This document shows, piece by piece, positions 1,408 to 60,203 of a DNA stretch of 64,000 bases (position 1 is the stretch's first letter; each line of letters starts with the position of its first letter). Position numbers and translations under genes: made by a program. A model generated the notes under the pieces. That model saw only the letters and a list, made by a program, of their open reading frames with translations. It made no database searches and was not told the origin of the DNA. This DNA comes from an uncultured Gammaproteobacteria bacterium (lineage in GTDB: Bacteria > Patescibacteriota > Patescibacteriia > UBA11705): positions 5,082-69,081 of the forward strand of contig CAZQEI010000007.1 of assembly GCA_964592195.1 (NCBI GenBank). The letters run 5' to 3'.

Positions 1408-1581
1408 ATTAGAGAAAAGGAGAGAATGAAGAGAAAATGAGAGACAGGTGAAACGGGGGTGACGGGAGAAACGAGTGATGGAATTATTTGTTTAAATAAA
1501 TATTTCCGATTTTAGAATTTATGATTTTGGATTCAGTGCTTTATTGTGATCAATTTTCCATGATCAATGTTCAATGTACTG

Positions 1582-3236: not shown

Positions 3237-3519
3237 TTCTACGGATCTACGAATCTGCTACAGATACTACGGATATGAAAGTAAAAAGTTTTCTTTACAA
3301 AATGATGTTTTTCCATTATAATCTTTTTGTTCGATGATCAATGATTCATGATCAATGATTTATGTTACGGCCAGATAGCCCCCTCTTCGCTTGTTCCTTC
3401 GCCAAGGCTACGGAACATAAAGAAGCTTCGAGGGGCAGGCAAGTGGTAAGGCAACGGTCCACGCCCAGACTCTCGAGAGAGGCTGAGTGCAAAACCGTTA
3501 TCACAATAAATTAAATCGA

Positions 3520-4811: not shown

Positions 4812-4980
4812 CCCAAACCTCCCTTCTTGCCGATACCATGACCGGCCAAGAAAGTGCCTGCCATCGACCATCCCCGCACCTGCGAGGCATTTCGACTCAG
4901 GCGTCAATACCTAAATTGTTAAAGTTCGTGCTGGTGATCGGATTTAGTAGGTTAACATGCCGTTGATTGTTGGTCAAGTT

Positions 4981-5140
4981 TAGCGATTAGTAACCGGTAA
5001 CCAGTAACCAGTAACTTGTAATATGTAAATTGTAATAAGTAGCCTGTAACTGGTAACTAGTAAATAGTAATCGTTTCACGTTTTACGTATCACGTATACC
5101 GTATTACGCTTTACGAATATCGATTTACGAATCACGAATA
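4981..5140. repeat. degenerate 9-bp-period tandem array (GTAACCAGT-type then CGTATCACG/TTACGAAT-type units)
   Basis: Visible periodicity in gtaaccggtaaccagtaaccagtaac...cgtttcacgttttacgtatcacg...ttacgaatcacgaat. Confidence 0.7.
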
Positions 5141-5181
5141 ATGAAAAAAGAAAAAACCCTCGCAATGCGGGGGTGTGAAAT

Positions 5182-7741: not shown

Positions 7742-10585
7742 ATGACAGAAAAGAGAACGAAATTTATCATCATCGACGGGAATGCTTTGGCACATCGAGC
7801 ATGGCACGCTATTCCGCCGTTGAAAACCAAGGATGGACGCATTGTAAATGCGGCGTTTGGGTTTACTTCAATTTTATTGAGAGTATTGAAAGATTTAAAA
7901 CCAGAATATATTGCAGTAACTTTTGATTTGAAAGGTCCGACTTTTCGTCATGAAAAATTTGAAGACTACAAAGCGCAACGGGTGGCACAGGCGGATGAAT
8001 TCTACGAACAATTCCCAATTATAAAAGATATTGTCCGAGCTTTTAATATTCCCATTTACGAAGAACAAGGGTATGAAGCTGATGACGTGATCGGTACTTT
8101 GTGCAAACATCCGCAAGTGGATAAGAAAAATATTTTGTCAGTGATAGTGACTGGAGATAAGGATACCTTGCAATTAATTGATGACAATACTGAAGTATTT
8201 ACTTTGCGTAAAGGCATGAGTGATACAGTGACCTATGATACAAAAGCGGTGATTGAAAAATTCGAAGGGTTAACACCAGCTCAAATGATTGATTACAAAG
8301 CTTTGCGAGGTGATCCGTCTGATAATATTCCCGGTATTAAAGGCATTGGTGAGGTGACGGCGATTCAACTGTTAAATGAATTTGGAACATTGGAAAACCT
8401 TTACGAAGCTTTAGAAAAAAAATCAAAACAAGTCGAAACTATCAAAGAACGTATTCGCGGTTTGATTATTGATCAAAAAGAACAATGCTTGATGAGTAAA
8501 GATTTGGCAACGATTAGAACAAATGTGCCAATGAAATTTGAATTGGAAGATTGCGCGATTAAAAGTTTTAACAAAGATGAAGTCTATCGTTTGTTTTCTA
8601 GTTTGGAATTTCAAAGTTTGTTAGTTCGTTTACCGAGTGAAAGTATGGTGGTGGAGGAAGTGGAAGAGAGGAAGATGGAACAGGGTGGGTTGTTTGCAAG
8701 CGAGATAAGCAAGAATAGCGAGATAAGCGAGGTAATTAAAAAAGCAAAAAATCAAAAAAACAATAAAGCAACGGCAAACGAAATAAAGCAAGTTTACCAC
8801 CTGATTGATAATGAAGAAAAGTTTCAGGGGTTTATTAAAAAATTGGAAAAGCAAAAGATATTTGTTTTTGATACTGAGACAACTGGGTTGAATCCGCGGG
8901 TGGCGGAATTGTTGGGTGTCAGTTTTTCATGGCAGGCGGGGGAAGCCTATTATGTGGCTTTAAACGCAGAGGAGGCGAAGAAAAAAGAGTGGTTATTAAC
9001 CATGAAAAAGATATTTGAAAATGACAAAGTAAAAAAATGCGGGCAGAACATGAAATTTGATGCCATGATGTTGAAGATGAATGGCATTGAAATGGAAAAC
9101 TATTATTTCGACACCATGATTGCTTCCTATTTGTTAAATCCTGGAACCAGACAACATGGTTTAGATCATTTAGCGTTTACCTTATTTCAATATAAAAAAA
9201 TTGCGACCACCGAATTAATTGGCACAGGCAAAAAACAAATTACTATGGCCGAGGTGCCGATTGAAACTGTTTCTAATTATGCTTGTGAAGATGCAGACTT
9301 TACTTGGAGAATCTATGAAGTCTTGGAAAAAGAATTGGAAAAAGAAAATTTGAGAAAATTGTTTAATGAAATCGAAATGCCTTTGGTTCCAGTGCTAATT
9401 GAAATGGAATTTAACGGAGTAAAGATTGACGTTGATCGCATCAAAGAAATAAATCAAAAAGTTTCTCGCACCATTAAATCTTTAGAAAAGAAAATCTTTG
9501 AATTAGCCGGCGAAGAGTTTAATATCAGTTCGCCATTGCAATTGAAAGTTATTTTATTTGATAAATTGTTAATCCCAACTCAAGGATTAAAGAAAACTAA
9601 AACCGGAATTTCAACAGCGGCTCCGGAACTGGAAAAGTTAGCTGGTCAACATGAGATTATTGATTATTTATCTCAATATCGCGAGTTGACCAAGTTGAAA
9701 TCAACTTACTTGGATGCTTTACCAAAATTAATCGATAAAAAAACCGGTCGTGTTCATACCAGTTTCAATCAAACTGTGACTGCGACTGGAAGATTATCTT
9801 CCTCAGATCCAAATTTACAAAATATTCCTATTAGAAATGAGTGGGGCAAGGAAATGCGCAAAGTTTTCGTGGCTGATCATGGCAATCGTTTGATCGCGGC
9901 GGATTACTCACAGGTGGAATTGCGAGTGATTGCCTGTCTGGCCAAAGATGAAGTTATGATGGGCGTGTTTAAACGTGGCGAAGATATTCATCGAGCAACG
10001 GCAGCTAAAATTTTTGGTGTGGAACCAAAAGATGTGACCGATGATATGCGTCGCAAGGCGAAGGAAGTTAACTTCGGCGTTTTATATGGTATGGGCTCCA
10101 GTGGTTTATCCCAACGAACAGGAATTTCCCGCGTTGAAGCTAAAGAATTTATTCAAAAATATTTTGATACTTATAAACGAGTGAGAGAATACACTGAAGA
10201 GATGGTGGAACAAGCACACAAGAACGAAGTGGTAGAAACTTTATTTGGTCGTAAGCGATCGTTGACGGAAATAAACGCTAGTATGCCGATGTTGCGTGCG
10301 GCCGCAGAAAGAATGGCCGTGAACATGCCAATACAAGGCACAGCCGCTGATTTGATGAAAATTGCGATGATTGAAGTTTATAAAGAAGTGAAAAAAGTCA
10401 GTCCGAAAACCAGAATGTTACTTCAGGTTCACGATGAATTGGTGTTTGAAACTCCGTTGGCTGAAGTGGAAAAAGTAGCAAAAATCATTGATGATAAAAT
10501 GGAAAAAATTCATAAACTCGCGGTGCCGATTAAAGTGGAGACTGAGGTGGGGAAGAATTGGGATGAGATGTCTGTGGTGGCGTGA
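7742..10585 (+). CDS. polA: DNA polymerase I (5'-3' exo, 3'-5' exo-like, polymerase domains)
   Basis: 947 aa. Motifs KFIIIDGNALAHRAWHA, ADYSQVELRV, RRKAKEVNFGVLYGMG, VHDELVFE. Confidence 0.95.
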   Translation: MTEKRTKFIIIDGNALAHRAWHAIPPLKTKDGRIVNAAFGFTSILLRVLKDLKPEYIAVTFDLKGPTFRHEKFEDYKAQRVAQADEFYEQFPIIKDIVRAFNIPIYEEQGYEADDVIGTLCKHPQVDKKNILSVIVTGDKDTLQLIDDNTEVFTLRKGMSDTVTYDTKAVIEKFEGLTPAQMIDYKALRGDPSDNIPGIKGIGEVTAIQLLNEFGTLENLYEALEKKSKQVETIKERIRGLIIDQKEQCLMSKDLATIRTNVPMKFELEDCAIKSFNKDEVYRLFSSLEFQSLLVRLPSESMVVEEVEERKMEQGGLFASEISKNSEISEVIKKAKNQKNNKATANEIKQVYHLIDNEEKFQGFIKKLEKQKIFVFDTETTGLNPRVAELLGVSFSWQAGEAYYVALNAEEAKKKEWLLTMKKIFENDKVKKCGQNMKFDAMMLKMNGIEMENYYFDTMIASYLLNPGTRQHGLDHLAFTLFQYKKIATTELIGTGKKQITMAEVPIETVSNYACEDADFTWRIYEVLEKELEKENLRKLFNEIEMPLVPVLIEMEFNGVKIDVDRIKEINQKVSRTIKSLEKKIFELAGEEFNISSPLQLKVILFDKLLIPTQGLKKTKTGISTAAPELEKLAGQHEIIDYLSQYRELTKLKSTYLDALPKLIDKKTGRVHTSFNQTVTATGRLSSSDPNLQNIPIRNEWGKEMRKVFVADHGNRLIAADYSQVELRVIACLAKDEVMMGVFKRGEDIHRATAAKIFGVEPKDVTDDMRRKAKEVNFGVLYGMGSSGLSQRTGISRVEAKEFIQKYFDTYKRVREYTEEMVEQAHKNEVVETLFGRKRSLTEINASMPMLRAAAERMAVNMPIQGTAADLMKIAMIEVYKEVKKVSPKTRMLLQVHDELVFETPLAEVEKVAKIIDDKMEKIHKLAVPIKVETEVGKNWDEMSVVA

Positions 10586-10677
10586 GGAAGAAGTAACCGG
10601 TAACCCGTAATCGGTAACCAGTAAAAAGAAATTTGTTCTCGATAACTATAATCAAAAATCTAAAATCTTTAATCTTT

Positions 10678-11877
10678 GTGTCCACGCACGAAACAATTAA
10701 TCTCACCGGCACTGTTACTCCTGAAAATCAAGGGAGTTTAGTTGACGTTAACGAGGAATTGCATAAAACGAGTGAAGCGATTAAACAACAAGGGAGGACA
10801 CCGGAAAATGTGTTGAGGGCTTTAGCCTTGGTAACTAAAATGGGCGATATTGTTAAGCAAGAAAAACAGGAAATTAAAAAAATACATGTAGATTTTAGCA
10901 AGTTTGAAGAATTGGAAAGAATTGAAAATATAAGAGAGGGTGTTTCCAATATTAATTTTTTAGCGCCTGATAGTTTAATCTTTTCTCTAAAACATCTAAC
11001 TGATGATAAAGAGTTGTTGTATTCAATGAAATTGGATGATTCTCAGACGGTCGCACGTATGCTGAATCCTTCAGGTGGGGCGTTATCTGTCAGCCCCGGG
11101 TTGGATTTTATGGACGCTAGCCAATCTGAATTTTTGGTTTATGGTGGTTCTGATGGTTTGCGAGTTTTGGATTGTAGAAAAAAGGGTGAAGAAAATCTTG
11201 TCTATCTGCCACTGAATGGGATTGCATGTAAGTTTGCCATTTCTTTGGATGATGAAGAAGTTATAACTAATGATGAAGATGGCTTCCAGATTATCCATGG
11301 AGTCCATCCTTTTGTATCAAGAAAGTCGGTGCGTTCAAAAGATTTGATTACTGATTCAATTGGTAGAATTGAGTGTGGGGTTAAGTTAAAGAATGGCAAA
11401 ATAGCGTTTGGAACGGCAGAGGGTGGGTTAGTGGTGTATGATATTGGAAATAATAGTATGTTGAGGGTGCGGGTTGATAATATATTACCGAAATATTCAT
11501 TAATCAGTTTAGCGGAATATGATGATAATAAAGTCCGGGGTGTCTATTTGAGAGTGGGCACAACTACTGCCAAATTTGTAAATTTTGACACAGAAACTGG
11601 TGAGGCGATTCCTTGTGGAGATGCGTCGTTTACCGCCTCGACAATGATGCCATTAGAAAATGGTTTAATTGCTTTTGCTTCCGGTTATAACATATCAATT
11701 GTAAATGGAGAAACCAACAAGTTAGTAACACTTTTAAAGGGTAAAAAAAATGGTAGAAGTACTGGTAAAATTGATCAAAGAATAACTGGTATGACTCGTT
11801 TGCCTGATGGACGAATAGTAGTATGTCGTGAAGATGGAAATATTGTTTTTTATGGTGATCCAGATGTTAGCGAGTAG
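10678..11877 (+). CDS. paralog family member 1: conserved N-terminal about 45 aa and C-terminal RLPDGRIV..DG..FYGDPDV, variable repeat-rich core (beta-propeller-like by inference)
   Basis: GTG start gives MSTHETINLTGTVTPENQGSLVDVNEELHKTSEAIK. Repeated xNGxIAFGTxxGxLVVYD blade-like units. Confidence 0.6.
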   Translation: MSTHETINLTGTVTPENQGSLVDVNEELHKTSEAIKQQGRTPENVLRALALVTKMGDIVKQEKQEIKKIHVDFSKFEELERIENIREGVSNINFLAPDSLIFSLKHLTDDKELLYSMKLDDSQTVARMLNPSGGALSVSPGLDFMDASQSEFLVYGGSDGLRVLDCRKKGEENLVYLPLNGIACKFAISLDDEEVITNDEDGFQIIHGVHPFVSRKSVRSKDLITDSIGRIECGVKLKNGKIAFGTAEGGLVVYDIGNNSMLRVRVDNILPKYSLISLAEYDDNKVRGVYLRVGTTTAKFVNFDTETGEAIPCGDASFTASTMMPLENGLIAFASGYNISIVNGETNKLVTLLKGKKNGRSTGKIDQRITGMTRLPDGRIVVCREDGNIVFYGDPDVSE

Positions 11878-12027
11878 GTGCGAGGGATGAGGTATGAGGG
11901 ATGAGCTATGAGCGGTTAGCGTTAAGCGGTAAGCGGTTAGGGATTGGAATTAAGAATTAAGAATAAAAATATAATTGAATTCGTATCACGTTTAACGTAT
12001 CACGCTTTACGAATTACGAATAACGAA
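11878..12027. repeat. degenerate 9-bp tandem array (GAGCGGTTA / GAATTAAGA / CGTATCACG / TTACGAAT units) abutting the next start codon
   Basis: gatgagctatgagcggttagcg...gaattaagaattaagaa...cgtatcacgctttacgaattacgaataacgaa then ATG. Confidence 0.7.
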
Positions 12028-13236
12028 ATGTCATTTAACGAAACAATTAATCTCACCGGCACTGTTGCTCCTGAAAATAAAGGGAGCTTAGTTGACGTCA
12101 ATGAAAAACTGCATGAAACGAGCGAGGCGATTAAAAGACAAGGACCAACGTCGGGAAATGTGTTGCGAGCTTTGGCGTTGGTGGAGGAAATGAGTGGACT
12201 TGTTCGTGAAAATAGTTTTGGTAATTTTGAGCATAAAGATTTTGCCAAGTTCGAAGAGTTGGATCGGGTGGAATTGAGAATGACATGTTTGGAACAAGTT
12301 GATTTTTTACCTCCGCATTATGTTGTCGTCTCCGGCGTGAGTCAAGCCGTGCATGTTCTTGATTTAACCAAAATGGAAGATAGATCTTCTATCGAAGATA
12401 TTTTAGTCACGAAAAATACAAAAAGAGGAGATTTGAGTGAATTAGTCGCTGACGAGAGGGGTAAATTTGATGCTTTGATAAAACTGAATAGTAAGGCAAT
12501 CGTATATTTACAAGATTATACTTGGTATCGCAAAGAAAAATTCAGTCATAATAATAGATATCCCACTCCTTTGCGACCACGATTCATGCTAAATCTCGAA
12601 AATGGAAAGATGTTGACTAATGATACCGACGGATATCAAGTGTTGGATTTTTCAAGCGGCATTAGGGAAACATCAATGCGTTCAGGTTTCAATATACCCG
12701 ATCAAGAACTCGGACAGCTGACATGCGGGATTAGAATGAAAAATGGACGAGTGGCTCTGGGAAATGAATCTGGTGAATTAATGATTGTTGATCCCCATGA
12801 TAAGCAAGCTTTGAAATGGCGCAGTCGAATTACAGATGATACGGATCGTTATTCGGTACAAAACATTGTTGAATATGATGATAATAAATTATTACTTATA
12901 ATTAACGAAAAGAATAAACCGAATAGTGATAATTTGGTTTTGTCTATTGATTTTAATGCCTCTGCTCCTGATTTTGTTCATAAATTTCAATATCGAAATA
13001 CTGTAATGTTGGGCTTGGGAGGTGGTAAAATTGTTTTTCCTACAGGCTGGACATTGAATTTCGAAGATGCGGATAAGTCTTTGATTATTAATGTAATTTC
13101 TAATAAAAAAGATTTTGTGAACGATGGACCTAGTAATGAACATATTGTTTCCATGATGCGTTTGCCTGATGGCAGAATCGTGGCGGGAAGAATTGACGGG
13201 ACGGTGGTGTTTTATGGGGAAGCGAGAGAAGAATAA
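12028..13236 (+). CDS. paralog family member 2
   Basis: MSFNETINLTGTVAPENKGSLVDVNEKLHETSEAIK ... RLPDGRIVAGRIDGTVVFYGE. Confidence 0.6.
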   Translation: MSFNETINLTGTVAPENKGSLVDVNEKLHETSEAIKRQGPTSGNVLRALALVEEMSGLVRENSFGNFEHKDFAKFEELDRVELRMTCLEQVDFLPPHYVVVSGVSQAVHVLDLTKMEDRSSIEDILVTKNTKRGDLSELVADERGKFDALIKLNSKAIVYLQDYTWYRKEKFSHNNRYPTPLRPRFMLNLENGKMLTNDTDGYQVLDFSSGIRETSMRSGFNIPDQELGQLTCGIRMKNGRVALGNESGELMIVDPHDKQALKWRSRITDDTDRYSVQNIVEYDDNKLLLIINEKNKPNSDNLVLSIDFNASAPDFVHKFQYRNTVMLGLGGGKIVFPTGWTLNFEDADKSLIINVISNKKDFVNDGPSNEHIVSMMRLPDGRIVAGRIDGTVVFYGEAREE

Positions 13237-13466
13237 AGAATTAGGAAGTAAGGGATGAGCTATGAGCGGTTAGCGGTAAGCGGTAAGTGATTAGGGATTG
13301 GAATTAAGAATTAAGAAGTAAGGGATAAGGAATGAGCGATTAGCGATTGGCGGCAAGCGATTAGGAGTTAGAATTAAGAATTAAGAATTAAGAATAAAAA
13401 ATCTAATTGAATTCGTATTACGTTTAACGTTTAACGTATCACGCTTTACGAATTACGAATAACGAA
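13237..13466. repeat. degenerate 9-bp tandem array, same unit families
   Basis: gagcggttagcggtaagcg...gaattaagaa...cgtttaacgtatcacgctttacgaattacgaataacgaa then ATG. Confidence 0.7.
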
Positions 13467-14678
13467 ATGTCATTTAACGAAACAATTAATCTCACTGGCA
13501 CTGTTGCTCCTGATAAACAAGGGAGCATAGTTGACGTCAATGAAAAATTGCACGAAACGAGTGAGGCGATAAAAAAACATGGCCGAACGCCGGAAAATAT
13601 TCGGCGAGCTTTGGATTTAGTTCAAGAAATGTCTAGATTAATTCCGAGAGAGATAAATTTCAGAGAATTTAAACACAAAAACATTAAAAATTTTAAAGAA
13701 TTGGATCGGTTACACGATGTTGGTGTTGGTTTGTGCTCGGTGAACTATTTATCACCTGACAAACTAGTGGTGTCTTACGCCCAAGAAGCAAAACCGAAGG
13801 TTATTGATCTTAGTAAAATTGTAAACAGAGATTTTGAACAAGATGTTTTTGTTGAAGATATAAAAACTGATAAAAGAGTTAATATTGCAACTCGAGAATC
13901 GAATAAACAAGATTATTGGTGTGAGTTGAATGAAAATGATTTTGCTTATATAAACAAAGGAAGAATAACTTTTTGCGTTGATGGCGTTTCTAGGCAAATA
14001 TCTTATCCAAGAGGACATAAATTTTGTTTACCACTTGAAGACCATTTTGTATTGACAGACTCTGATTCAGGTTTTTTGGTGGTTGATTATAAAAATCCTG
14101 AGTACCCTATTGTTAAACGATCGGGTGAAATGATGCCTGATTTAACACTTGGAAAATTACACTCAGCAATTAAATTACAAAATGGTAATTTCGTTTTTGG
14201 TACTGATAACAATGAAATTGCGGTTGTAGATTTTAATAATCAAAATGCACCATTGGTTTGGCACGACGAAATGCCAGGTGGATTTGAATCAGATGTGATA
14301 AAAATTGTTGAATATGCTCCAAATAGATTATATGTCATTTCCAGGAGAAGAACTGGAGGAAATGATTTGATGCTGATTGCTGTTGATATTAATACGTATT
14401 CTATGAGATTGAAGGAATCTAGATTCCCCTCGCAGTATATGCTTCCGTTAGGTGATGGTTTTGTTTGTTACGCAGACGGTTACAGACTTTTTATAAAAGA
14501 CTTAAATACAAACAAAGATGGCAAAGTTATTTATGGAGAATTTGGGGAGCCTAGCGCAGGACCAAAAGAAAGCCAAATTACAGATTTGATTCGATTACCT
14601 GATGGGCGACTCGTGGTTAGTAGATTAGATGGGAAGGTAATATTTTATGGTGATCCCGATGTTGATAATGAGGTGTGA
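13467..14678 (+). CDS. paralog family member 3
   Basis: MSFNETINLTGTVAPDKQGSIVDVNEKLHETSEAIK ... RLPDGRLVVSRLDGKVIFYGDPDV. Confidence 0.6.
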   Translation: MSFNETINLTGTVAPDKQGSIVDVNEKLHETSEAIKKHGRTPENIRRALDLVQEMSRLIPREINFREFKHKNIKNFKELDRLHDVGVGLCSVNYLSPDKLVVSYAQEAKPKVIDLSKIVNRDFEQDVFVEDIKTDKRVNIATRESNKQDYWCELNENDFAYINKGRITFCVDGVSRQISYPRGHKFCLPLEDHFVLTDSDSGFLVVDYKNPEYPIVKRSGEMMPDLTLGKLHSAIKLQNGNFVFGTDNNEIAVVDFNNQNAPLVWHDEMPGGFESDVIKIVEYAPNRLYVISRRRTGGNDLMLIAVDINTYSMRLKESRFPSQYMLPLGDGFVCYADGYRLFIKDLNTNKDGKVIYGEFGEPSAGPKESQITDLIRLPDGRLVVSRLDGKVIFYGDPDVDNEV

Positions 14679-14679
14679 G

Positions 14680-14835
14680 GAAATAGTATTAAGAAGTAAG
14701 AAGTAAGGGATAAGGAGAAGGAGAAGGAGAAGGAGAAAGTAATAAGTAACCAGTAACCTGTAACCGGTAACCAGTAACCAGAAAAGGTACTCTGTAAGTA
14801 TAATCTCGTATTACGCTTTACGAATTACGAATACC
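14680..14835. repeat. degenerate tandem array (AAGGAGAAGGAG, GTAACCAGT, TTACGAAT units)
   Basis: aaggagaaggagaaggagaagg...gtaaccagtaacctgtaaccggtaaccagtaacc...cgctttacgaattacgaataccgag. Confidence 0.65.
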
Positions 14836-14902
14836 GAGTTCCCAATTGACATTAATCATGAATTAATTTAACATAACTAAGCTCTTCAAAAGGGGGGAAC
14901 AT

Positions 14903-15508
14903 ATGACAAAGCTATTAATAGGCTCGAATAATCCGGCGAAGTTGGCGACTTTTAAATTGTTGCTGGATGATTATGGTTTTGATGTTGTTTCTCCGAAGGA
15001 AATTGGAATTAACGAAGATGTGGAAGAAACGGGAAAAACTTTTGAAGAAAATGCTCTTTTGAAAGCTAAGTTTTATCATGAGAAATCAGGGTTACCAACT
15101 TTGGCTGATGATGGTGGTATTGAAATCGATGCGCTTGATGGCGCACCGGGTGTTTACTCTCATCGTTGGGCAGGGGAACCACCTGAAGGTGTGGACGTTG
15201 ATCAACATTTGCTCAATACCACCTTGGAAAAAATGAAAGACGTTCCAGCGGAAAAAAGAACGGCTCAGCTGGCTAGCACGTTATGTTTAATTTTACCGGG
15301 AAAAGAACCTGTCTTTGTTAATTCAGGGATAAAAGGCCACATCACTAGCGAACAACAAGCGCCGATTCGACATGGTTTTCCGTATCGTTCAATATTTGTT
15401 TCCGATGATATGGGCAAGTTGTTGGCTTTAGCAACGGAGGAAGACTTGAAACGATTTGATCACCGGAAGAACGCACTGAAGCAGTTGGATAAATATTTGA
15501 GAAGTTAA
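14903..15508 (+). CDS. rdgB: non-canonical purine NTP pyrophosphatase (RdgB/Ham1 family)
   Basis: LIGSNNPAKL N-terminus, about 200 aa, Ham1-like motifs. GGGGAA RBS. Confidence 0.7.
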   Translation: MTKLLIGSNNPAKLATFKLLLDDYGFDVVSPKEIGINEDVEETGKTFEENALLKAKFYHEKSGLPTLADDGGIEIDALDGAPGVYSHRWAGEPPEGVDVDQHLLNTTLEKMKDVPAEKRTAQLASTLCLILPGKEPVFVNSGIKGHITSEQQAPIRHGFPYRSIFVSDDMGKLLALATEEDLKRFDHRKNALKQLDKYLRS

Positions 15509-15901: not shown

Positions 15902-18271
15902 ATGGCTATCAAGACTGCTACTCAGTTGGGCTTTGATGCCATCAATGGGATTGTGCAGGATCGGCGGTTGGCGCGACAAATTTTGTCTTTGACCGCTTTT
16001 CGTATTCAGTTCTCGGAAGGTTTTATTGAATTAATGGCGCCGAATATGAAGGAACGCGCGTTGTTGGAAAAGTTTGTGTTTCACGCTGATTTGAAAGATC
16101 TCGGTCATCGTTTGTTGCAGATTCATCTGGAAAAAATTATTCTGGGAATTATTCTGGACATTTATCAAACTGAGATTTTGAAGCAGTCGATTCCCAAGGA
16201 TAACTTCAAAGTGCTAGTTGATTGTTTGCATCTGGATTTGATGCTTCAAATTCAGCATGAAAAAACAGAATCGGATTCTTCATCTGTGAGTGATGATCAA
16301 TTTGTTATCATCGCGACTGAAGCTGAAGTGAATATTGAAGCTGGCGCTCTGATGGTCGCGCAACATGAACAGAAGATGCTTTCAATCCAGTCGCCAATGA
16401 ATTATTTAGCTTCACCGGAAGGTCAACAAAAATTCAAGGCGTTTATTGAAGAAAAGTTAATGCAGACAGTTCAAGATTTGGTTGATTTACCAAGAATCTC
16501 TGATCCAACCTTGTTCGCTGAAAAACTTCGTTCTGTCAGCTCTATGATGCGTAACAATCTTAAGCAAGATGATTTTATCCAAGCCGCAACTATGAACTTC
16601 GATGAACGTCCGCCCGAGTCACGTCGCGTGATCGCGGAAGTTTTGAAACATCATGGTTTGAATCCGACTCTGTTGGATAATGTCGCATTCCTGTGCTCAG
16701 ATCGTCCGGCAGCAGTGCAAATCGAGTCAATCAATGTGCTGGTTCGTTGTTTGGACAAGACTGTGGATCAAACTGAAACTGATTTAGCTGCGATTTCCTT
16801 GTTGAAAGTCTTTGCCGAAGGCGCAAAAGTGGAAGTGCAAGTGCACGCCCTTCGCGCTTTAGCGAATAACGCGCAGATCATTCTTCAACGTTTGCCAAAT
16901 TTTCTCGAACGCGGTCGCATTCTGGATACGGTTAAAACAGTTTTGCTGGAAAATCCCACGGCGTTTGTTGAAGATGCCAAACGATTGCTGTTGCATTTCG
17001 GTTTCTTCAAGCGTGACCTGGTAGTCAATTCACTCCTTGATGAACTGCAAAATGTTTCTGATTCAGATGTTATTTGCGTTTACCTGGACCTAGTTGAAGA
17101 TTTGGCTGATAATGATCATGATAAAATTCAAGCCTTCAGTAAGCGATGGAAACTGTTTGAAACTGTTCAAGTCACTCGGCCGGATTTGGCGGAAAAGATT
17201 GAAAAACAATTTCGAGCTCAAGTGCCTAATTCATTGTTGAATTTGTTTACTATTTTCCCTGAATTATCAGTTGAAATGAAAGTGTATTTTGTTGGTGTGC
17301 TTGATGACATCTTCGCGGCTAGAATTAAACAATCAGACTCTGATACTTGTCAATTGATTGCCAAAGAGTTTTATCGCTGGGCGGTTAAAGATCACGAAGA
17401 CGTGGCGCGAGCCATTCTTCTCGGTCATACTGTTTACTGTCTGCGGTTGGATAACAACTATTTGAGTCGGTATTGGCCTTGCATTCTTAGAACTTTGACT
17501 TGGTTGCAAACGCAAGAAAATTTTGAAACGCGTTTGTTGGAATCTGAACATTTGCATTGGATGGAAATGGTCGCTTTGTTGGAAAAAAGCCGTGGTTTGG
17601 AAATGAAAATGTGGTTGGCTAAGGTGGCTGTTCAAAAAGCTTGTAAATTGTCATTGACTTCCAGGACGGTAAGCGCGAATCTGGTCGAGTATCAAAAAAG
17701 TTTGACCAATTTGCTTTTGGCGATCAATAAAATGATTGTTGAAATGACGCTTAGTCATAGTGAATTAGTTACGGTGTTCAGATTCTGTCAGGAATTGGTT
17801 CGTTCTCCTTTGGCAAATGAAAAGTTTGTTAACACCATGATTTTGGAAGTTCAGCTGGCTATCTCTGGAAAGTCAGATAACTACAAGAAATTGTTAATCG
17901 TTCTCTTTACCAATCTGGCAGATAGTCCGTTGATTACCGCTAGAATGGTGACTGAATGTTTGCGTGTCTTTATTCTTACTGTGGAACAAGACATTCCACC
18001 GTTACCAGAAAGTGGACCACCAGCCGTACCGGCATCAGTGCCCGAACTGGTGGAAAAAGCTTTTGCTGGTATGGCGGCGATTATTAACGGTGGTCGTTTG
18101 CCAGATGTGGCAAAGTTCAGTCTGAATCGTAAGTTGCGAGAATGGCATAGTCAGCGTCCGAAGGTCATGACCGGTTATATTCCCGGTTGTCAAACAACAG
18201 AAGTGGAAGATGATTTTAAATCTCAATTGGCTCGGTTAATGGATCTGATCAAGGCTACGAATATTAGTTAA
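15902..18271 (+). CDS. large (789 aa) helical-repeat protein of unknown function
   Basis: Long ORF with a strong RBS, Leu-rich and alpha-helical with ARM/HEAT-like composition. No motif recognised. Confidence 0.6.
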   Translation: MAIKTATQLGFDAINGIVQDRRLARQILSLTAFRIQFSEGFIELMAPNMKERALLEKFVFHADLKDLGHRLLQIHLEKIILGIILDIYQTEILKQSIPKDNFKVLVDCLHLDLMLQIQHEKTESDSSSVSDDQFVIIATEAEVNIEAGALMVAQHEQKMLSIQSPMNYLASPEGQQKFKAFIEEKLMQTVQDLVDLPRISDPTLFAEKLRSVSSMMRNNLKQDDFIQAATMNFDERPPESRRVIAEVLKHHGLNPTLLDNVAFLCSDRPAAVQIESINVLVRCLDKTVDQTETDLAAISLLKVFAEGAKVEVQVHALRALANNAQIILQRLPNFLERGRILDTVKTVLLENPTAFVEDAKRLLLHFGFFKRDLVVNSLLDELQNVSDSDVICVYLDLVEDLADNDHDKIQAFSKRWKLFETVQVTRPDLAEKIEKQFRAQVPNSLLNLFTIFPELSVEMKVYFVGVLDDIFAARIKQSDSDTCQLIAKEFYRWAVKDHEDVARAILLGHTVYCLRLDNNYLSRYWPCILRTLTWLQTQENFETRLLESEHLHWMEMVALLEKSRGLEMKMWLAKVAVQKACKLSLTSRTVSANLVEYQKSLTNLLLAINKMIVEMTLSHSELVTVFRFCQELVRSPLANEKFVNTMILEVQLAISGKSDNYKKLLIVLFTNLADSPLITARMVTECLRVFILTVEQDIPPLPESGPPAVPASVPELVEKAFAGMAAIINGGRLPDVAKFSLNRKLREWHSQRPKVMTGYIPGCQTTEVEDDFKSQLARLMDLIKATNIS

Positions 18272-29038: not shown

Positions 29039-31375
29039 ATGACCAACTTAGCTAAAAAACTATTACTCGCCACGGTTTTCTACACCGGCGCGGTGGTGCT
29101 CATTGTCGAAGTTTTGGCAGTGCGGATTTTGGCGCCGTATTTTGGGAGCACGATGTATTCGGTGTCCAGTGTTTTGAGTGTGGTGTTGGCTGCGTTGTCA
29201 GTTGGCTATTATTTTGGCGGTAAATGGAGTGATTCTCATCCCAGCAAGAAATTATTTTTTGGAATTATATTTGTCAGTGGTATTTCGTTGATTGCAATGC
29301 AATTATTAACTCTATATGTTGTCCCGGATTGGAGTGAAAGCTTGTCAATGATCACTGGCCCATTGTGGGTTTCAATTATTTTATTTTTTATTCCCAGTTT
29401 TTTACTTGGCACGTTGTCTCCTTTGGTAATAAAATTGTTTAGCGTGGGAGAAACCATGGATACGATTGGCAGTTTAGCGGGAAAAGTTTTTTTCTGGTCA
29501 ACTCTTGGTAGTATTGTTGGGAGTTTACTGTCAGGTTTTGTGTTAATTCCCAGCTTTGGATTGAATAATATTGTTCGCGGTTTAGCCATCAGTTTATTAT
29601 TAATCGGAGCCATTGGTTTGTTTATTGATAATAAAAAGAAATTAATTGGTTCGTTGATATTGGTGATTGTTTTGTCTGGAGCTAGCTTGTTAATGGTGGA
29701 AAAAGTAGAAGCGTTGATTTCTTATGAAGGCATTTACCAACGCATTAGCGTGATTGATTCTGATTATAAAGGCACACCGGCCAGGCTATTGATGTTAGAC
29801 AAAAATCCCTCCTCTGCCGTAGATAAAACTGATAATTCTGTGATTTTTACCTATACCAAATATTATAAACTGTATAAATATTTTGCCCCGGAAATGAAAT
29901 CAGCGCTTGTTCTGGGTGGCGGAGCGTTCATTGTGCCGGAGGCTTTAGTGAATAGTTCACCAGAGGTAACCGTGGAGGCGGTGGAGATCGAGCCATCGCT
30001 TTTTAATTTGGGAAAAGAATATTTTGGTGTCAAAGACAGTGATCGTTTAATTGTGAGTAATGATGATGGTCGAGTATATTTAAAACAAACCAAGAAAAAA
30101 TATGATTTGATTTTCGGCGATGTGTTTCATTCACTTTATGGTGTGCCAGTGCAATTTACTACCAAAGAATTTTACGTCTTATCAAAAAGTAAATTGAATA
30201 ATAATGGGGTAATAATGGTCAATGCTATCGGTCAGCTTTCCAATCGCGCGCCTTCGTTTCTAATGTCGGAAATTAAAACTTTCCGTTCGGTTTACCCAAA
30301 TAGCTATTTCCTCGCTGTCTATTCACCATCTTCAAGCAAGTTACAAAATGTCATGATGATTGGTGTGAATGGTGATCAAGCTTTTGATTGGAATAGTATT
30401 AAAGAAAAAGAATTAATTGATTTAACCAAAAATAAATTAGTAGATTTGTCAGCTTATGATTGGGGCAACTACGAATTATTAACTGATGATTTTGCGCCTG
30501 TTGATTATTATAATGCTATAACTCTGCAAGAAGTGGAAAAAGCGAGACATAATTATATTAGCGGGGAAGAAGCCTTGGCTTCAGTGGCGAAACAAGTGTC
30601 TTTTGGCCAACGATATTTAGGTAGTGATGGGCATCAGGCAGAAGTTGAATACATAACAAAGCAATTGAATAAATTTACCCTCAATGTTCAACGTCAAGCA
30701 TGGGAGGAAACTTCCCCGGCGGGTGTGAAATATGAATTTCGCAATGTGCTGGCGCGTTTTTGGCCGGAGAATAAACAACGAATTATATTTGTGACACATT
30801 ATGATACCAAGAAAATTGATAGTGTGAATTTTGTCGGTGCCAATGATGGAGCCTCGGGTGTGGCAGTCATGTTGCAAATGGCGGAATTTTTAAATTTGGT
30901 GGATGAAGAACCAAATGTTGGTGTTGATTTGTTGTTTGTGGACGGTGAGGAAGGTTGGCCAGGTGAGGAACAGGCCACTATTGGAATTGGCGCTAAAAAG
31001 TTTGTAACAGATTTAAATAATTATTATATAGAAAAACCGGTTGAAGTGATTAATATAGATTTAGTGGGTGAGAAAGACGCACAATTTTTCCAAGAAAAAG
31101 ATTCTTTGCAATTTGATAAGAGCAAACATGAAAAGCTTTTTCAAGTTGGTAACGAATTATATGGTGATATGTTCATGGCAATGCCTAAATATCAGATATG
31201 GGATGATTTTACCGCTTTCAATCAACTTGGAATACCGGCGCAATTGTTAATCGATTTTGATTACAAGTATTTTCATACTGCCAAAGATAGTTTGAACAAA
31301 ATTGATTCAATGAGTTTAGCAAATACTGGTAATGTATTATTACGTTATCTCTATACTGAATATGGCAATCATTGA
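29039..31375 (+). CDS. fusion protein: polytopic membrane spermidine-synthase-like (aminopropyltransferase fold) N-terminal domain plus M28-family peptidase-like C-terminal domain
   Basis: About 7 TM helices, then LVLGGGAF...DLIFGDVFHS (methyltransferase/SpeE-like), then NDGASGVAVMLQ and FVDGEEGW (M28 motifs). Confidence 0.55.
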   Translation: MTNLAKKLLLATVFYTGAVVLIVEVLAVRILAPYFGSTMYSVSSVLSVVLAALSVGYYFGGKWSDSHPSKKLFFGIIFVSGISLIAMQLLTLYVVPDWSESLSMITGPLWVSIILFFIPSFLLGTLSPLVIKLFSVGETMDTIGSLAGKVFFWSTLGSIVGSLLSGFVLIPSFGLNNIVRGLAISLLLIGAIGLFIDNKKKLIGSLILVIVLSGASLLMVEKVEALISYEGIYQRISVIDSDYKGTPARLLMLDKNPSSAVDKTDNSVIFTYTKYYKLYKYFAPEMKSALVLGGGAFIVPEALVNSSPEVTVEAVEIEPSLFNLGKEYFGVKDSDRLIVSNDDGRVYLKQTKKKYDLIFGDVFHSLYGVPVQFTTKEFYVLSKSKLNNNGVIMVNAIGQLSNRAPSFLMSEIKTFRSVYPNSYFLAVYSPSSSKLQNVMMIGVNGDQAFDWNSIKEKELIDLTKNKLVDLSAYDWGNYELLTDDFAPVDYYNAITLQEVEKARHNYISGEEALASVAKQVSFGQRYLGSDGHQAEVEYITKQLNKFTLNVQRQAWEETSPAGVKYEFRNVLARFWPENKQRIIFVTHYDTKKIDSVNFVGANDGASGVAVMLQMAEFLNLVDEEPNVGVDLLFVDGEEGWPGEEQATIGIGAKKFVTDLNNYYIEKPVEVINIDLVGEKDAQFFQEKDSLQFDKSKHEKLFQVGNELYGDMFMAMPKYQIWDDFTAFNQLGIPAQLLIDFDYKYFHTAKDSLNKIDSMSLANTGNVLLRYLYTEYGNH

Positions 31376-31991: not shown

Positions 31992-31999
31992 GAAATGAG

Positions 32000-32162
32000 G
32001 GAAGAGGAAAAAGTAATAAGTAACCGGTAACCAGTAATCAGTAACCAGTAATATGTAATAAATAACCTGTAACCGGTAATCTGTAAATTGTAGTCGTTTA
32101 ACGTATCTCGTATGACGTTTCACGATTTACCCTTCACGTATCACGAATACCGAATTACGAAT
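32000..32162. repeat. degenerate 9-bp tandem array (GTAACCAGT then CGTATCACG/TTACGAAT units)
   Basis: gtaaccggtaaccagtaatcagtaaccagtaatatg...cgtttaacgtatctcg...cacgaataccgaattacgaattacc. Confidence 0.7.
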
Positions 32163-32236
32163 TACCCCGCGATGCGGGGCAGGCGATTCACGAAAAGACA
32201 GCGCTAACGCTGTTTTTATTATAAATAAGCCATTTG

Positions 32237-38612: not shown

Positions 38613-38753
38613 AAAAGAACAGCTCAAACGGGCTGTTTTTTTAATTTATTAATTGTGCTATAATTAAAATATAAAAATAAATGTATTGAATGGAGGGTTT
38701 TTGAATTTTGATCTTATGGTCAATGTTCATTGATCAATGTTCAATGAAAAAGT

Positions 38754-41590: not shown

Positions 41591-43384
41591 ATGGCTAATA
41601 GGAAGGGGACTACTGAGGTCAAGGCCAAAGTAGAAAAAAACAAATCAAATAAAGGTAATCTCGAAGGTCAAACCAAAGCCAAGGTTATAACGCAGGAAGT
41701 GAAACCCGAGGCAGCGGCCAAGAAGTTGACTGACGAAAGTTTGGGAAAGGTATTGCTCGAGCAGAGTTACATCTCGGCTGATGATTTGAAGGCAGCGGAA
41801 AATTATACAAAGTCCGGGCGCGGTAAGCTCACGGAGTTTTTATTATCCAATGGAATTTTGAATAAAGATTTATTGGGCCAAGCTGTAGCTGAGTATTACA
41901 AGGTTCCTTATGCTGATTTAAATACTAATACTCCAAAGCGCGATCAAGTTTTAAAAATTCCAGAATCCTTGGCCATGCAATATCGGGCAGTCTTATATCG
42001 TGAAGATGCGAAAACTGCAGTTATTACCACTGATGCTTTGGTGGAAATGCCACCACTATCAGGTTTTCAACCTTTATTCCCAGGGAAAAAGGTGGTTTTG
42101 GCATATTCAATTTCTGATGATATTGATTTTGTCCTCGGTTACTACAAAAAGTCTCTCGAAACGCAATTCTCAAAGATTATCGAAAACCAAGCTAGGATTG
42201 CGCCTGAGTTGTTGGAAGTTATTTTCAAGGACGCTTTGGCACAAAAAGCATCAGATATTCACTTTGAACCAAACGAAAAAGATGTCTTAGTCCGCTTCAG
42301 AGTTGATGGTCTTTTGTATGCCGCTGGTCATTTACCGGTCAAATTTTATCAAAACATTTTAAATCGCGTCAAAGTTTTGAGCAATATGCGCATTGATGAG
42401 CACTATGCAGCTCAGGATGGTGCTATTCGTTTCTTTGATGATAATCACGAGAAGGTAGATATGCGTGTGTCAGTCAGCCCTACTATCGAAGGTGAAAAGA
42501 TTGTTATTCGTTTGCTCAGTCATTATATCCAAAACTTTTCTTTGGCAGATTTAGGTTTGTCTGATGCTCATCGTGAAATGGTGGCCAAGGCTGCGGCGAA
42601 ACCTTTTGGTATGATTCTCGTTACCGGTCCGACTGGATCAGGCAAGACTACAACTTTGTATTCATTGTTGAAACTGTTAAATAGCTCGGATGTTAATATT
42701 ACTACTATTGAAGACCCGGTAGAATATCGATTGGCCGGTGTCAATCAGATTCAGGTAAATGCTGCTACAAATTTAACTTTTGCGAAAGGTTTGCGTTCTA
42801 TTGTGCGTCAAGATCCGGATATTATTTTGGTGGGCGAAGTTCGTGATACGGAAACTGCTGAAATTAGTGTGAATGCGGCTTTGACCGGACATTTATTATT
42901 ATCAACTTTCCATGCCAACGATGCAGCCTCAGCTATCCCTCGTTTGTTGGATATGGGTGTAGAACCATTCTTGATTTCTTCTACCTTGGAAATAATTGTG
43001 GCACAGCGTTTAGTTCGTCATATTTGTGATAATTGTAGAGTTAGTATGATTATGACGAAGAAGCAAGTGGAGGATAAATTTACCGGCGCCAGTAAGTATT
43101 TTACTGAAGAGCAAAATACGGTTTATGAAGGCAAGGGTTGTCATTTATGTAATAATACTGGCTATCGCGGACGTACTGCTATTTTTGAAGTTATTACCAT
43201 TACTCCAGAAATGGAAGAGTTAATTGTTAAAAGTCCATCGACCAAAGAAATTTGGGATTTGGCCAAAAAACAAGGTGCCAGCTCAGTCTTTGAAGATGGT
43301 ATTTTGAAAATTCGGGAGGGAATTACCACGATTGATGAATTGTTGCGTGTAGCTGAACCGCCAGTTGAACAAGTTGTTAGTTAA
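41591..43384 (+). CDS. pilB: type IV pilus / T2SS assembly ATPase (PilB/GspE family) with Lys-rich N-terminal extension
   Basis: T2SSE_N-like domain, Walker A GPTGSGKTT, Asp and His boxes, tetra-Cys CDNC...CHLC. Confidence 0.9.
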   Translation: MANRKGTTEVKAKVEKNKSNKGNLEGQTKAKVITQEVKPEAAAKKLTDESLGKVLLEQSYISADDLKAAENYTKSGRGKLTEFLLSNGILNKDLLGQAVAEYYKVPYADLNTNTPKRDQVLKIPESLAMQYRAVLYREDAKTAVITTDALVEMPPLSGFQPLFPGKKVVLAYSISDDIDFVLGYYKKSLETQFSKIIENQARIAPELLEVIFKDALAQKASDIHFEPNEKDVLVRFRVDGLLYAAGHLPVKFYQNILNRVKVLSNMRIDEHYAAQDGAIRFFDDNHEKVDMRVSVSPTIEGEKIVIRLLSHYIQNFSLADLGLSDAHREMVAKAAAKPFGMILVTGPTGSGKTTTLYSLLKLLNSSDVNITTIEDPVEYRLAGVNQIQVNAATNLTFAKGLRSIVRQDPDIILVGEVRDTETAEISVNAALTGHLLLSTFHANDAASAIPRLLDMGVEPFLISSTLEIIVAQRLVRHICDNCRVSMIMTKKQVEDKFTGASKYFTEEQNTVYEGKGCHLCNNTGYRGRTAIFEVITITPEMEELIVKSPSTKEIWDLAKKQGASSVFEDGILKIREGITTIDELLRVAEPPVEQVVS

Positions 43385-43398
43385 AAAAAAGGGGGAAT

Positions 43399-46845: not shown

Positions 46846-46970
46846 TTTCATTGAACATCGATCAAGGATCATTGATCATTGAACGTGAAGCAGCAAAGAA
46901 TAATTTAAAATTTTTCTAATCGTTGCACGTTTAACGCTTAACGAATTACGCTTTACGAATATCGAAAAAA

Positions 46971-47504: not shown

Positions 47505-47508
47505 TAAA

Positions 47509-48135: not shown

Positions 48136-48149
48136 TAAAACTCAGGGGT

Positions 48150-53646: not shown

Positions 53647-53864
53647 ATGTTATTTATTTGTTATTTGTTTGTTAAATATCAAAATAAGTGTTTGTTTAAC
53701 TGATAAAATTATAGCATTATTGTGTTTAACCAGCAATTTGAGGTGTTGATAAGGGTTAGGGATGAGGTATGAGCGTTAAGCGGTTAGCGATTAGCGACTA
53801 ATAACTATAATCTATAATTTTTAATCGTTTCACGTATACCGCTTTACGTTTATCGAATACCGAA

Positions 53865-60202: not shown

Positions 60203-60203
60203 T

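What the first reader, a model, noticed from the sequence alone, without database searches (positions are those of the whole stretch)
10586..14835. Tandem triplet of paralogs with conserved termini, divergent cores and repeat-array upstream regions
Three consecutive about 400-aa ORFs (10678-11877, 12028-13236, 13467-14678) share an almost identical, non-hydrophobic N-terminal module (M-S-x-x-E-T-I-N-L-T-G-T-V-A/T-P-E/D-N-K/Q-G-S-L/I-V-D-V-N-E-K/E-L-H-E/K-T-S-E-A-I-K). Nucleotide identity over the first roughly 140 nt is about 85 percent. They also share a C-terminal module R-L-P-D-G-R-I/L-V-x-x-R-x-D-G-x-V/I-V/I-F-Y-G-D/E. The about 300-aa middles are strongly divergent but retain blade-like repeats (N-D-x-D-G-F/Y-Q, C-G-I/V-x-x-K/Q-N-G-x-x-A-x-G-x-x-x-G-x-L-x-V-V-D, E-Y-D-D-N-K), which suggests a beta-propeller scaffold. 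There is no Sec signal peptide or TM segment. Each gene is preceded by a degenerate 9-bp tandem array that runs directly into the start codon with no Shine-Dalgarno, while most other genes here have clear GGAGG-type RBSs. This pattern fits a diversifying effector, adhesin or toxin-like family whose conserved N-terminal domain could be a targeting or export module, or a recombination-cassette system. I cannot match it to a described family.
Basis: partly seen in the sequence, partly recalled or inferred. Interest (0 to 1): 0.8.

Follow-up and report, generated by a model that had tools for sequence, protein, structure and literature searches.

The report
Tandem WD40-like paralogs, novel N-terminal module
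Three neighbouring genes encode old, strongly diverged copies of a seven-bladed WD40-type propeller protein. All three carry the same undescribed 60-residue N-terminal module, in a very rare lineage-specific family of unknown role. The repeat arrays in front of them are a genome-wide spacer feature, not something special to these genes.

Summary

The N-module matches no Pfam, NCBIfam, PHROG, PADLOC or PDB family. An exhaustive HMM search found it on only four other proteins, from two other NCBI contigs. There it is fused to LRR or other domains, so it is a portable N-terminal handle.

The duplicates are ancient: synonymous sites are saturated in the core and the C-terminal blade. The first ~20-40 codons are also conserved at synonymous sites, and g2 and g3 share a 69-nt exact repeat. 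This points to 5'-end gene conversion or selection on the mRNA.

The upstream arrays have period 7, not 9. They belong to a modular spacer element, seen on the + strand only, at about 13 loci in the window. Only about a quarter of genes here have a Shine-Dalgarno sequence.

Verdict: a new lineage-specific variant of a known fold, with unknown function. The best guess is a family of adaptors with a shared docking handle. Interest is moderate.

The parts
10586..10677 (+). Spacer polA-g1. Made of heptamer arrays (GTAACCn x4, then AATCnnn x4) that run from the polA stop codon to the GTG start of g1.
   Evidence: TRF period 7 at 10593-10624 and 10646-10668. In-phase print-out.
10678..11877 (+). g1, 399 aa. 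N-module aa 1-63 (10678-10866). 7-bladed WD40-like propeller from about aa 75-395. Last blade about 11782-11853.
11878..12027 (+). Spacer g1-g2, made entirely of in-phase heptamers: GAGGGAT > GAGCGGT > AAGAATT > CGTATCA/CGCTTTA/CGAATTA. It ends at the ATG. No SD, no terminator.
12028..13236 (+). g2, 402 aa. N-module 12028-12216. Propeller. Last blade about 13144-13221.
13237..13466 (+). Spacer g2-g3, homologous to spacer g1-g2 but with a 70-nt (10-heptamer) internal duplication at 13230-13392.
   Evidence: TRF period 70, score 221. Alignment A5.
13467..14678 (+). g3, 403 aa. N-module 13467-13655. Propeller. Last blade about 14586-14657.
14679..14835 (+). Heptamer/hexamer array element directly after the g3 stop codon (AAGAAGT, GGAGAA x5, AGTAACC x5, ACGAATT). 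It lies upstream of the promoter-like site and SD of the Ham1 gene.
11988..12056 (+). Copy 1 of a 69-nt exact direct repeat, at -40..+29 relative to the g2 ATG.
13427..13495 (+). Copy 2 of the 69-nt exact repeat, at -40..+29 relative to the g3 ATG. It is the junction of Logan contig L001, which lacks gene 2.

Best explanation
Shown by the data:
- The locus holds three ancient tandem duplicates of one gene.
- The protein has a strictly N-terminal module of about 60 aa. This is a conserved extended peptide, LTGxxxPxxxGSL(V/L)DVNExLH, running into a helix-loop-helix hairpin.
- Behind it sits a 7-bladed, highly degenerate WD40-type beta-propeller. Its closing blade alone keeps the ancestral LPDGRIV-x-R-x-DG-x-V-x-FYG consensus.
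- The N-module is portable. Elsewhere it is fused to LRR and other domains.

Inferred function:
- These are soluble proteins not exported by Sec, acting as adaptors or receptors.
- The shared N-module docks each paralog onto one common partner or assembly.
- The diverged propeller gives each paralog its own binding specificity. This is the logic of families that join a helical handle to a WD40 or LRR domain.

Evolution and surroundings:
- The propeller bodies diverged to saturation under protein-level constraint.
- The 5' ends, about 60-110 nt and in g2/g3 also the last 40 nt of leader, are kept alike at nucleotide level. The cause is gene conversion and/or selection on an mRNA start region without an SD.
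- The heptamer arrays are the genome's generic spacer element. Here they provide A/U-rich, unstructured, SD-less leaders. They are not a device specific to this family.
For: Fold:
- AF2 models have pLDDT 52 and 59 overall, with the C-terminal half at 70-86. They show helices at 21-38 and 42-63, then about 7 x 4 strands.
- Foldseek against PDB gives 876 hits at E<=1e-3; all 50 listed are beta-propellers, nearly all WD40.
- The exhaustive HMM search hits WD40 proteins through the last blade, down to E 3e-11.
- A blade HMM built from those hits recognises only the last blade.

Portable N-module:
- P0023, P0046, P0047 (LRR by Pfam) and P0025 match only profile positions about 1-80 (P0046 up to 167), at E 2e-5 to 8e-4.
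- hhalign of A1 against P0025 gives 96.6% probability, with 49% identity over 57 aa.
- The module starts at residue 1-2 in all seven proteins.

Age and selection:
- Core pS is 0.65-0.70 and C-terminal blade pS is 0.58-0.81. Blade pN is about 0.2, against 0.51-0.56 in the core.
- Third-position identity is 0.74-0.89 in codons 1-19, against 0.32-0.40 in the core and 0.35-0.52 in the C-terminal blade.
- g2 and g3 share a 69-nt exact repeat.

No export signal.

Arrays are genome-wide. Their RNA is no more structured than shuffled sequence, z -0.7 to +1.0.

Precedent for heptamer repeats abutting SD-less start codons: PMC4679880.
Against: - No partner is known, and nothing in the neighbourhood (polA, Ham1, an unknown 789-aa protein) suggests one.
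- The docking role of the N-module is inferred from architecture only.
- The models are of moderate confidence, because the alignment has only three sequences.
- The organism and its lifestyle are unknown, so a cytoplasmic location is only inferred from the lack of a signal peptide.
- dS is saturated, so neither positive nor relaxed selection on the propeller surface can be shown.
- The 5' synonymous conservation could equally reflect recombination with no role in translation.
Confidence: 0.45

Rival explanations
1. The proteins are effectors or adhesins exported by a non-classical route. The conserved, strictly N-terminal module is the export or targeting signal. The variable WD40, LRR or other domain acts on or binds a host or partner cell.
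For: - The module is strictly N-terminal and shared by proteins with unrelated interaction domains.
- WD40 and LRR domains are typical effector scaffolds (general knowledge).
- The window is rich in type IV pilus genes: two PilB/PilC pairs and several pilins.
- The family is multi-copy in at least two genomes.
Against: - No secretion system other than type IV pili appears in the window.
- There is no match to LXG, WXG, MIX or other known N-terminal trafficking domains in Pfam or NCBIfam.
- There is no toxin or enzymatic domain.
- The locus sits between housekeeping genes, with native base composition.
Confidence: 0.2
2. The locus is a recombination or copy-number-variation system. The homogenised 5' ends and repeat-array spacers act as recombination substrates that delete, duplicate or shuffle propeller bodies. 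The population then varies in which paralogs it carries or expresses.
For: - Synonymous-site conservation is confined to the 5' end.
- A 69-nt exact repeat flanks gene 2. Logan contig L001 from SRR12261223 is 100% identical on both sides but lacks exactly gene 2, 1,439 bp.
- The g2-g3 spacer carries a 70-nt array expansion.
Against: - L001 may be an assembler shortcut through a 69-nt repeat.
- All three copies are intact, each with its own start codon.
- There are no silent or truncated cassettes in the window.
- The bodies show no mosaicism and are saturated at synonymous sites.
- The proteins lack surface-protein features.
Confidence: 0.15
3. The N-module mimics a eukaryotic docking motif, either an F-box-like motif or the GGA/TOM1 GAT helix-loop-helix hook. 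On this reading the family manipulates a eukaryotic host.
For: - The architecture parallels F-box and DCAF receptors, which join a helical handle to a WD40 or LRR domain (general knowledge).
- The A2 profile's best PDB hit is the GGA1 GAT N-terminal region, E 0.016.
- hhalign against that GGA1 fragment gives 74% probability.
Against: - The F-box is rejected: no Pfam hit, and hhalign gives 0.1% probability against four F-boxes.
- The model has two long helices, not the three-helix F-box.
- The GAT hit is not significant for single sequences, E >= 0.55.
- No Pfam GAT hit was found.
- The ARF-binding Asn of GGA1 aligns with Arg/Ala (compared from memory).
Confidence: 0.05
4. The N-terminal similarity is an assembly or duplication artefact.
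For: g2 and g3 share a 69-nt exact repeat.
Against: - The bodies are only 33-37% identical, with saturated dS.
- An independent Logan assembly reproduces the end of g1, the spacer, g3 and Ham1 exactly.
- The same module occurs in other genomes at 35-49% identity.
Confidence: 0.01

Closest known systems
Bacterial and eukaryotic WD40-repeat beta-propellers (Pfam clan Beta_propeller; PF00400)
   Same: - The last blade carries the LPDGRIVSGSxDGTIxIW-like consensus.
- Remote HMM hits are WD40 proteins.
   Different: - No Pfam WD40 hit at E<=1.
- There is no GH/WD dipeptide signature.
- Six of the seven blades are unrecognisable by sequence.
- A novel N-terminal module is attached.
Substrate-receptor families that join a helical handle to a WD40 or LRR domain (F-box FBXW/FBXL; DCAF/DDB2/CSA with an N-terminal helix-loop-helix)
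   Same: - A short N-terminal helical module is shared by proteins whose C-terminal part is WD40, LRR or another domain.
- DCAF8, DDB2, CSA and COP1 are among the top structural matches of the propeller.
   Different: - There is no sequence relationship.
- The module is a two-helix hairpin, not a three-helix F-box.
- The setting is bacterial, with no known Skp1- or DDB1-like partner.
- The resemblance is one of design logic only.
GGA1 GAT domain N-terminal hook (PDB 1J2J, 1OXZ)
   Same: A helix-loop-helix with an LAxxLKxxxPEDxxxAxxL pattern. It is the best PDB sequence match of the module profile (E 0.016; hhalign 74%).
   Different: - The match is below significance and is not reproduced by single sequences.
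- There is no Pfam GAT match.
- The conserved N-terminal peptide (LTGxxxPxxxGSLxDVNE) has no counterpart in GGA1.
Intergenic heptamer direct repeats next to start codons (TAACTGA repeats of Beggiatoaceae, Cyanobacteria and Bacteroidetes, MacGregor 2015, PMC4679880; long simple sequence repeats, Mrazek 2007 as cited there)
   Same: 7-nt tandem units lie directly upstream of start codons. Canonical SD sequences are rare in such spacers. The feature is genome-wide and independent of gene function.
   Different: - The units here are different and degenerate: GAGCGGT, AAGAATT, AGTAACC, AATCTnn, ACGAATT.
- They are arranged in a fixed module order that morphs stepwise.
- They start at the upstream stop codon.
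- The four motif families tested occur on the + strand only.
Families with conserved 5' ends and divergent bodies kept alike by gene conversion (for example type IV pilin paralogs)
   Same: The 5' end is conserved, including at synonymous sites, and the paralogs are in tandem. The same window has a tandem pilin triplet.
   Different: - These are not pilins: there is no N-methylation motif and no hydrophobic helix.
- No silent cassettes are present.

Membership tests
WD40 beta-propeller (structural class) | Closed propeller of about 7 blades, each a 4-stranded antiparallel sheet | tested here: met
   [not shown]
WD40 repeat family (Pfam PF00400) | Repeats scoring above the Pfam gathering threshold, with the GH...WD signature | tested here: not met
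   No WD40 hit at E<=1 for any of the three proteins. The blades end in VVD, FYG or similar, not WD.
WD40 repeat family (remote homology) | Profile similarity to bona fide WD40 proteins | tested here: met
   The A1 profile hits multi-repeat proteins that Pfam calls WD40: P0006 at 3e-11, P0007 at 2e-10 and P0009 at 8e-8. The match is almost only through the last blade.
F-box proteins | An approximately 45-aa three-helix F-box (LPxE...W) detectable by Pfam F-box or F-box-like models | tested here: not met
   No F-box family at E<=10 in any of seven N-modules. The model shows two long helices.
F-box proteins | Binding to Skp1 | not testable with these tools
   No partner data are available.
GAT domain (GGA/TOM1) | Significant sequence or profile match to the GAT domain | tested here: inconclusive
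   The profile against PDB gives E 0.016 to GGA1 only. hhalign gives 74% probability. Single sequences give E>=0.55. No Pfam GAT hit.
Sec- or TM-targeted surface proteins | N-terminal hydrophobic signal peptide or TM helix | tested here: not met
   The mean Kyte-Doolittle value of the first 30 aa is -0.43 to -0.63. The maximum 19-residue window is 0.94-1.11.
Phage or defence-system proteins | Match to PHROGs or PADLOC models, or to phage or plasmid records | tested here: not met
   and the viral contig scan.
Start-codon-proximal heptamer repeats (TAACTGA type, PMC4679880) | Tandem 7-nt units within a few nt of the start codon, in spacers lacking an SD | tested here: met
   TRF gives period 7, ending at 12027 and 13466, one nt before each ATG. 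No SD is present.
Start-codon-proximal heptamer repeats (TAACTGA type, PMC4679880) | Repeat unit TAACTGA | tested here: not met
   The units are CGTATCA, CGCTTTA, CGAATTA, AGTAACC, AGCGGTT and AAGAATT.
Silent-cassette antigenic variation systems | Promoterless or truncated donor copies plus an expression site | tested here: not met
   A six-frame HMM search of the window finds only the three intact genes. The rest of the genome was not available.

The most novel reading that the evidence does not exclude
The 60-aa N-module would be a new portable docking or targeting domain of an uncultivated lineage. It would define a bacterial receptor family built like F-box or DCAF proteins, with one handle joined to interchangeable WD40, LRR or other binding domains. 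Alternatively it would mark the cargo of an unrecognised export route. In either case, the homogenised 5' ends and heptamer-array spacers would drive copy-number switching of the paralogs, as the Logan contig lacking gene 2 hints.
Probability: 0.15. Interest if true: 0.7.

Novelty: new variant of a known kind. Interest (0 to 1): 0.4.

Why it matters
- If the N-module is a true docking or targeting handle, it defines a new domain family. Only seven proteins carry it among about 15 billion searched.
- Such a family would be a small, tractable example of modular receptor design in an uncultivated bacterium.
- The locus also shows cleanly how protein-level constraint differs from nucleotide-level homogenisation. 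The C-terminal blade shows the first, and the 5' end shows the second.
- The locus shows that the genome's strand-polar, modular heptamer-array spacers can serve as SD-less leaders.
- As it stands, this is a lineage-specific WD40-like paralog cluster of unknown function. It is of interest mainly to people annotating such genomes.

Tried and rejected
Family and structure searches with no usable result:
- Pfam, NCBIfam, PHROGs, PADLOC and PDB sequence searches of the full proteins gave nothing significant.
- tblastn against phage and plasmid records gave no match.
- The afdb50 fold library was unavailable.

Homology searches:
- The word-indexed search with g2 found only the three proteins themselves.
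- The same tool, given the N-module alignment and a 76-aa N-module, returned nothing, not even the query proteins themselves. Those two negatives are therefore uninformative.
- Pattern scans of genome contigs (twice), metagenome contigs and viral contigs found pattern matches at about the chance rate, and no confirmed relative.
- Exact look-ups of g1, g2, g3, Ham1, P0025, P0046 and P0047 were not on record. The contexts and taxonomy of the relatives therefore could not be read.

Hypotheses rejected or left open:
- The F-box hypothesis was rejected.
- GAT similarity was left as an unproven lead.
- Promoter and terminator scans of the region were at chance level.
- The spacer RNAs are not more structured than shuffles.
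- Rfam found only tRNAs.
- dN/dS for positive selection is not interpretable, because dS is saturated.
- The organism could not be identified. A CPR/Patescibacteria-like origin is only an impression, based on many type IV pilus genes, 38% GC, strong GC skew and one-strand gene order.

Full report
**Observation**

The window holds three consecutive + strand ORFs: 10678(GTG)-11877, 12028-13236 and 13467-14678. Their products are 399, 402 and 403 aa long and align end to end with 33-37% identity. In 20-column blocks, pairwise identity is 0.80, 0.78 and 0.57 over the first 60 columns. It is 0.07-0.41 through the middle and 0.66 in the block containing RLPDGR(I/L)V..R.DG.(V/I)(V/I)FYG. The first 140 nt are 78-86% identical. 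The proteins are acidic (pI 5.2-5.5) and hydrophilic at the N-terminus, and have no TM-like segment. This part of the finding is correct.

**Fold**

Two AlphaFold2 runs on the three-sequence alignment gave moderate models, with mean pLDDT 52 and 59. The C-terminal half reached 70-86 and the N-terminal helices 62-77. Both show a disordered first ~20 residues and helices at 21-38 and 42-63. About seven groups of four beta-strands follow.

An exhaustive HMMER search of 1.84 billion cluster representatives, using the three-sequence profile, found 46 proteins at E<=1e-3. Apart from the three query proteins, most are multi-repeat proteins matched through profile positions ~365-398. Those I scanned are WD40 proteins by Pfam. 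A blade HMM built from four such hits recognises only the last blade of g1-g3, with i-E 6e-8 to 1.5e-6. Pfam WD40 itself does not hit the three proteins.

It is not a separate domain.

**The N-terminal module**

Four proteins in the same search matched the N-terminal part of the profile only (positions ~1-80; P0046 to 167):
- P0023 (243 aa)
- P0046 (233 aa)
- P0047 (243 aa, whose C-terminal half is LRR by Pfam)
- P0025 (398 aa, with a different beta-rich repeat region)

hhalign of the triplet profile against P0025 gives 96.6% probability and 49% identity over 57 residues, confined to the N-module. P0023 and P0046 are 33% identical to each other over 203 aa.

P0023, P0046 and P0047 each come from an NCBI contig of 54,336 bp, very probably the same one. 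P0025 comes from a contig of 86,512 bp. In all seven proteins the module starts at residue 1-2, and L9, T10, P15, G19, D23-V-N-E26, L28, H29, A48, L51 and V52 are invariant.

The module has no significant match in Pfam or in PDB sequences. The best PDB hit is the helix-loop-helix hook of the GGA1 GAT domain, at E 0.016 for the profile, 74% by hhalign and E>=0.55 for single sequences. I treat this as an unproven lead.

An F-box relationship was suggested by the "handle + WD40/LRR/other" architecture. It is rejected: there is no Pfam hit, hhalign gives 0.1% probability, and the helix topology is wrong.

No further copy of the module or the propeller exists in the six-frame translation of the window. 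There is also no relative in phage or plasmid records, viral contigs, JGI metagenome contigs or GTDB species representatives. Two word-indexed searches with the N-module returned nothing, not even the query proteins themselves, so they carry no weight.

**Age and mode of evolution**

Nei-Gojobori counts show synonymous saturation in the propeller core (pS 0.65-0.70, pN 0.51-0.56). The conserved C-terminal blade is also saturated (pS 0.58-0.81, pN ~0.2). That motif is therefore held by protein-level purifying selection in old duplicates.

The 5' end behaves differently. Third-codon-position identity is 0.74-0.89 in codons 1-19, 0.58-0.79 in codons 20-38 and 0.39-0.67 in codons 39-56. This compares with 0.32-0.40 in the core and 0.35-0.52 in the C-terminal blade. 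g2 and g3 also share a 69-nt exact repeat spanning -40..+29. The g1 upstream region is unrelated to theirs.

The 5' ~60-110 nt are thus kept alike at nucleotide level. The cause is gene conversion between the tandem copies and/or selection on the start region of the mRNA.

A 2,066-bp Logan contig from SRR12261223 is 100% identical to window 11797-12056 joined to 13427-15301. It lacks exactly gene 2 (1,439 bp), with the 69-nt repeat at the junction. This is either a real deletion variant or an assembler shortcut, and I cannot tell which.

**The repeat arrays**

Tandem Repeats Finder gives periods of 7 and 14 for every array around the three genes, plus a 70-nt duplication in the g2-g3 spacer. 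It never gives 9. Printed in phase, the four spacers consist almost wholly of heptamers that change stepwise in a fixed order: GAGGGAT/GAGCGGT, then AAGAATT, AGTAACC, AATCTnn and CGTATCA/CGCTTTA/CGAATTA. They begin at the upstream stop codon and, for g1-g3, end at the start codon.

The same element with the same module order fills spacers at 4975-5145, 31992-32170, 46846-46970, 47911-48149 and 53740-53870. ACGCTTTACGAATTACGAATA occurs exactly four times, where none is expected by chance.

A period-7 scan marks 19 overlapping windows at about 13 loci, 1,934 nt in total, against none in five shuffles. The four motif families I tested occur on the + strand only (30:2, 24:0, 8:0, 5:0), even beside minus-strand genes.

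Only 9 of 54 working ORFs have four or more bases of AGGAGGT at -17..-4, plus about five with G-runs. The lack of an SD is therefore common here. The spacer RNAs fold no better than shuffles (z -0.7 to +1.0), and promoter- and terminator-like sites in the region are at chance level.

Start-codon-proximal heptamer repeats in SD-poor spacers have a published precedent. These are the TAACTGA repeats of Beggiatoaceae, Cyanobacteria and Bacteroidetes (PMC4679880). The arrays are thus a genome-wide property, although four of the ~13 loci bracket this triplet.

**Context**

The triplet sits between polA (7742-10585) and a Ham1/RdgB-type gene (14903-15508). Ribose-phosphate pyrophosphokinase, IleRS, an ABC-F protein, a PAS/Cache histidine kinase, two PilB/PilC pairs and several type IV pilin genes lie elsewhere in the window. 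GC content is ~38%, with strongly positive GC skew throughout. The organism could not be named.

**Interpretation**

Shown:
- These are ancient tandem paralogs.
- The fold is a 7-bladed WD40-type propeller.
- The N-terminal module is portable, undescribed and strictly N-terminal.
- The closing blade is under protein-level constraint.
- The 5' ends are homogenised at nucleotide level.
- The spacers are built from a generic heptamer element.

Inferred, at about 45% confidence: the N-module is a docking handle that ties differently specific binding domains (propeller, LRR, others) to one partner. This is the design logic of F-box or DCAF receptors, without any membership in those families.

Rivals:
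- A non-classical export or targeting signal on effectors (about 20%).
- A recombination or copy-number switching locus (about 15%).
- Mimicry of a eukaryotic motif (about 5%).
- An artefact (about 1%).

**Novelty and verdict**

The fold is known. The N-module and the family are undescribed and extremely rare, with seven proteins found. I rate this a new variant of a known kind, of moderate interest (0.4). It is wrong on the array period, on the arrays being gene-specific and on the SD contrast.

Noticed in passing
window 4975-5145, 10586-10677, 11878-12027, 13237-13466, 14679-14835, 31992-32170, 46846-46970, 47911-48149, 53740-53870: A dispersed intergenic element built of in-phase heptamer arrays that morph stepwise in a fixed module order: GAGCGGT, then AAGAATT, AGTAACC, AATCTnn and ACGAATT. 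It usually starts right at a stop codon. All four motif families tested lie on the + strand only (30:2, 24:0, 8:0, 5:0), even next to minus-strand genes. This suggests polarity relative to replication rather than to genes.
   Followed up: partly
L001 (Logan SRR12261223_255944) vs window 11797-12056 + 13427-15301: An independent assembly is 100% identical on both sides but lacks gene 2 (1,439 bp). The junction falls in the 69-nt exact repeat shared by the g2 and g3 start regions. This is either a real deletion variant or an assembly shortcut.
   Followed up: partly
window 51924-52397, 52574-53047, 53173-53646 (- strand): A second tandem triplet: three 157-aa type IV pilin paralogs with an N_methyl motif. 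They are 58% identical to the first copy, and two of the three are nearly identical to each other. More pilin-like ORFs lie at 46971-47910.
   Followed up: partly
window 41591-44562 and 58517-61478: Two separate PilB (T2SSE) and PilC (T2SSF) gene pairs lie within 64 kb, so the region is rich in type IV pilus genes.
   Followed up: no
window 15902-18271: A 789-aa ORF just downstream of Ham1 has no Pfam, PHROG or PADLOC match. Its function is unknown, and it was not examined as a possible partner.
   Followed up: no
L002 (Ga0247727_10037593) 2515-2555: An unrelated, higher-GC metagenome contig carries a short array of the same kind (TTTACGT TTTACGC TTTACGA ATTACGA ATAA) in an intergenic spacer. 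ACGAATT-type heptamer arrays are therefore not confined to this genome.
   Followed up: no
window 1547-1577, 3334-3364, 38716-38747, 46848-46882, 54844-54872: Another heptamer family (ATGATCA / TGTTCAA / TCATTGA) forms short arrays. Some lie directly before start codons (1567, 38754), and one lies directly after a stop codon (46846).
   Followed up: no
window 29039-31375: A 778-aa ORF combines a spermine/spermidine-synthase-like domain with a C-terminal M28 peptidase domain, an unusual fusion.
   Followed up: no
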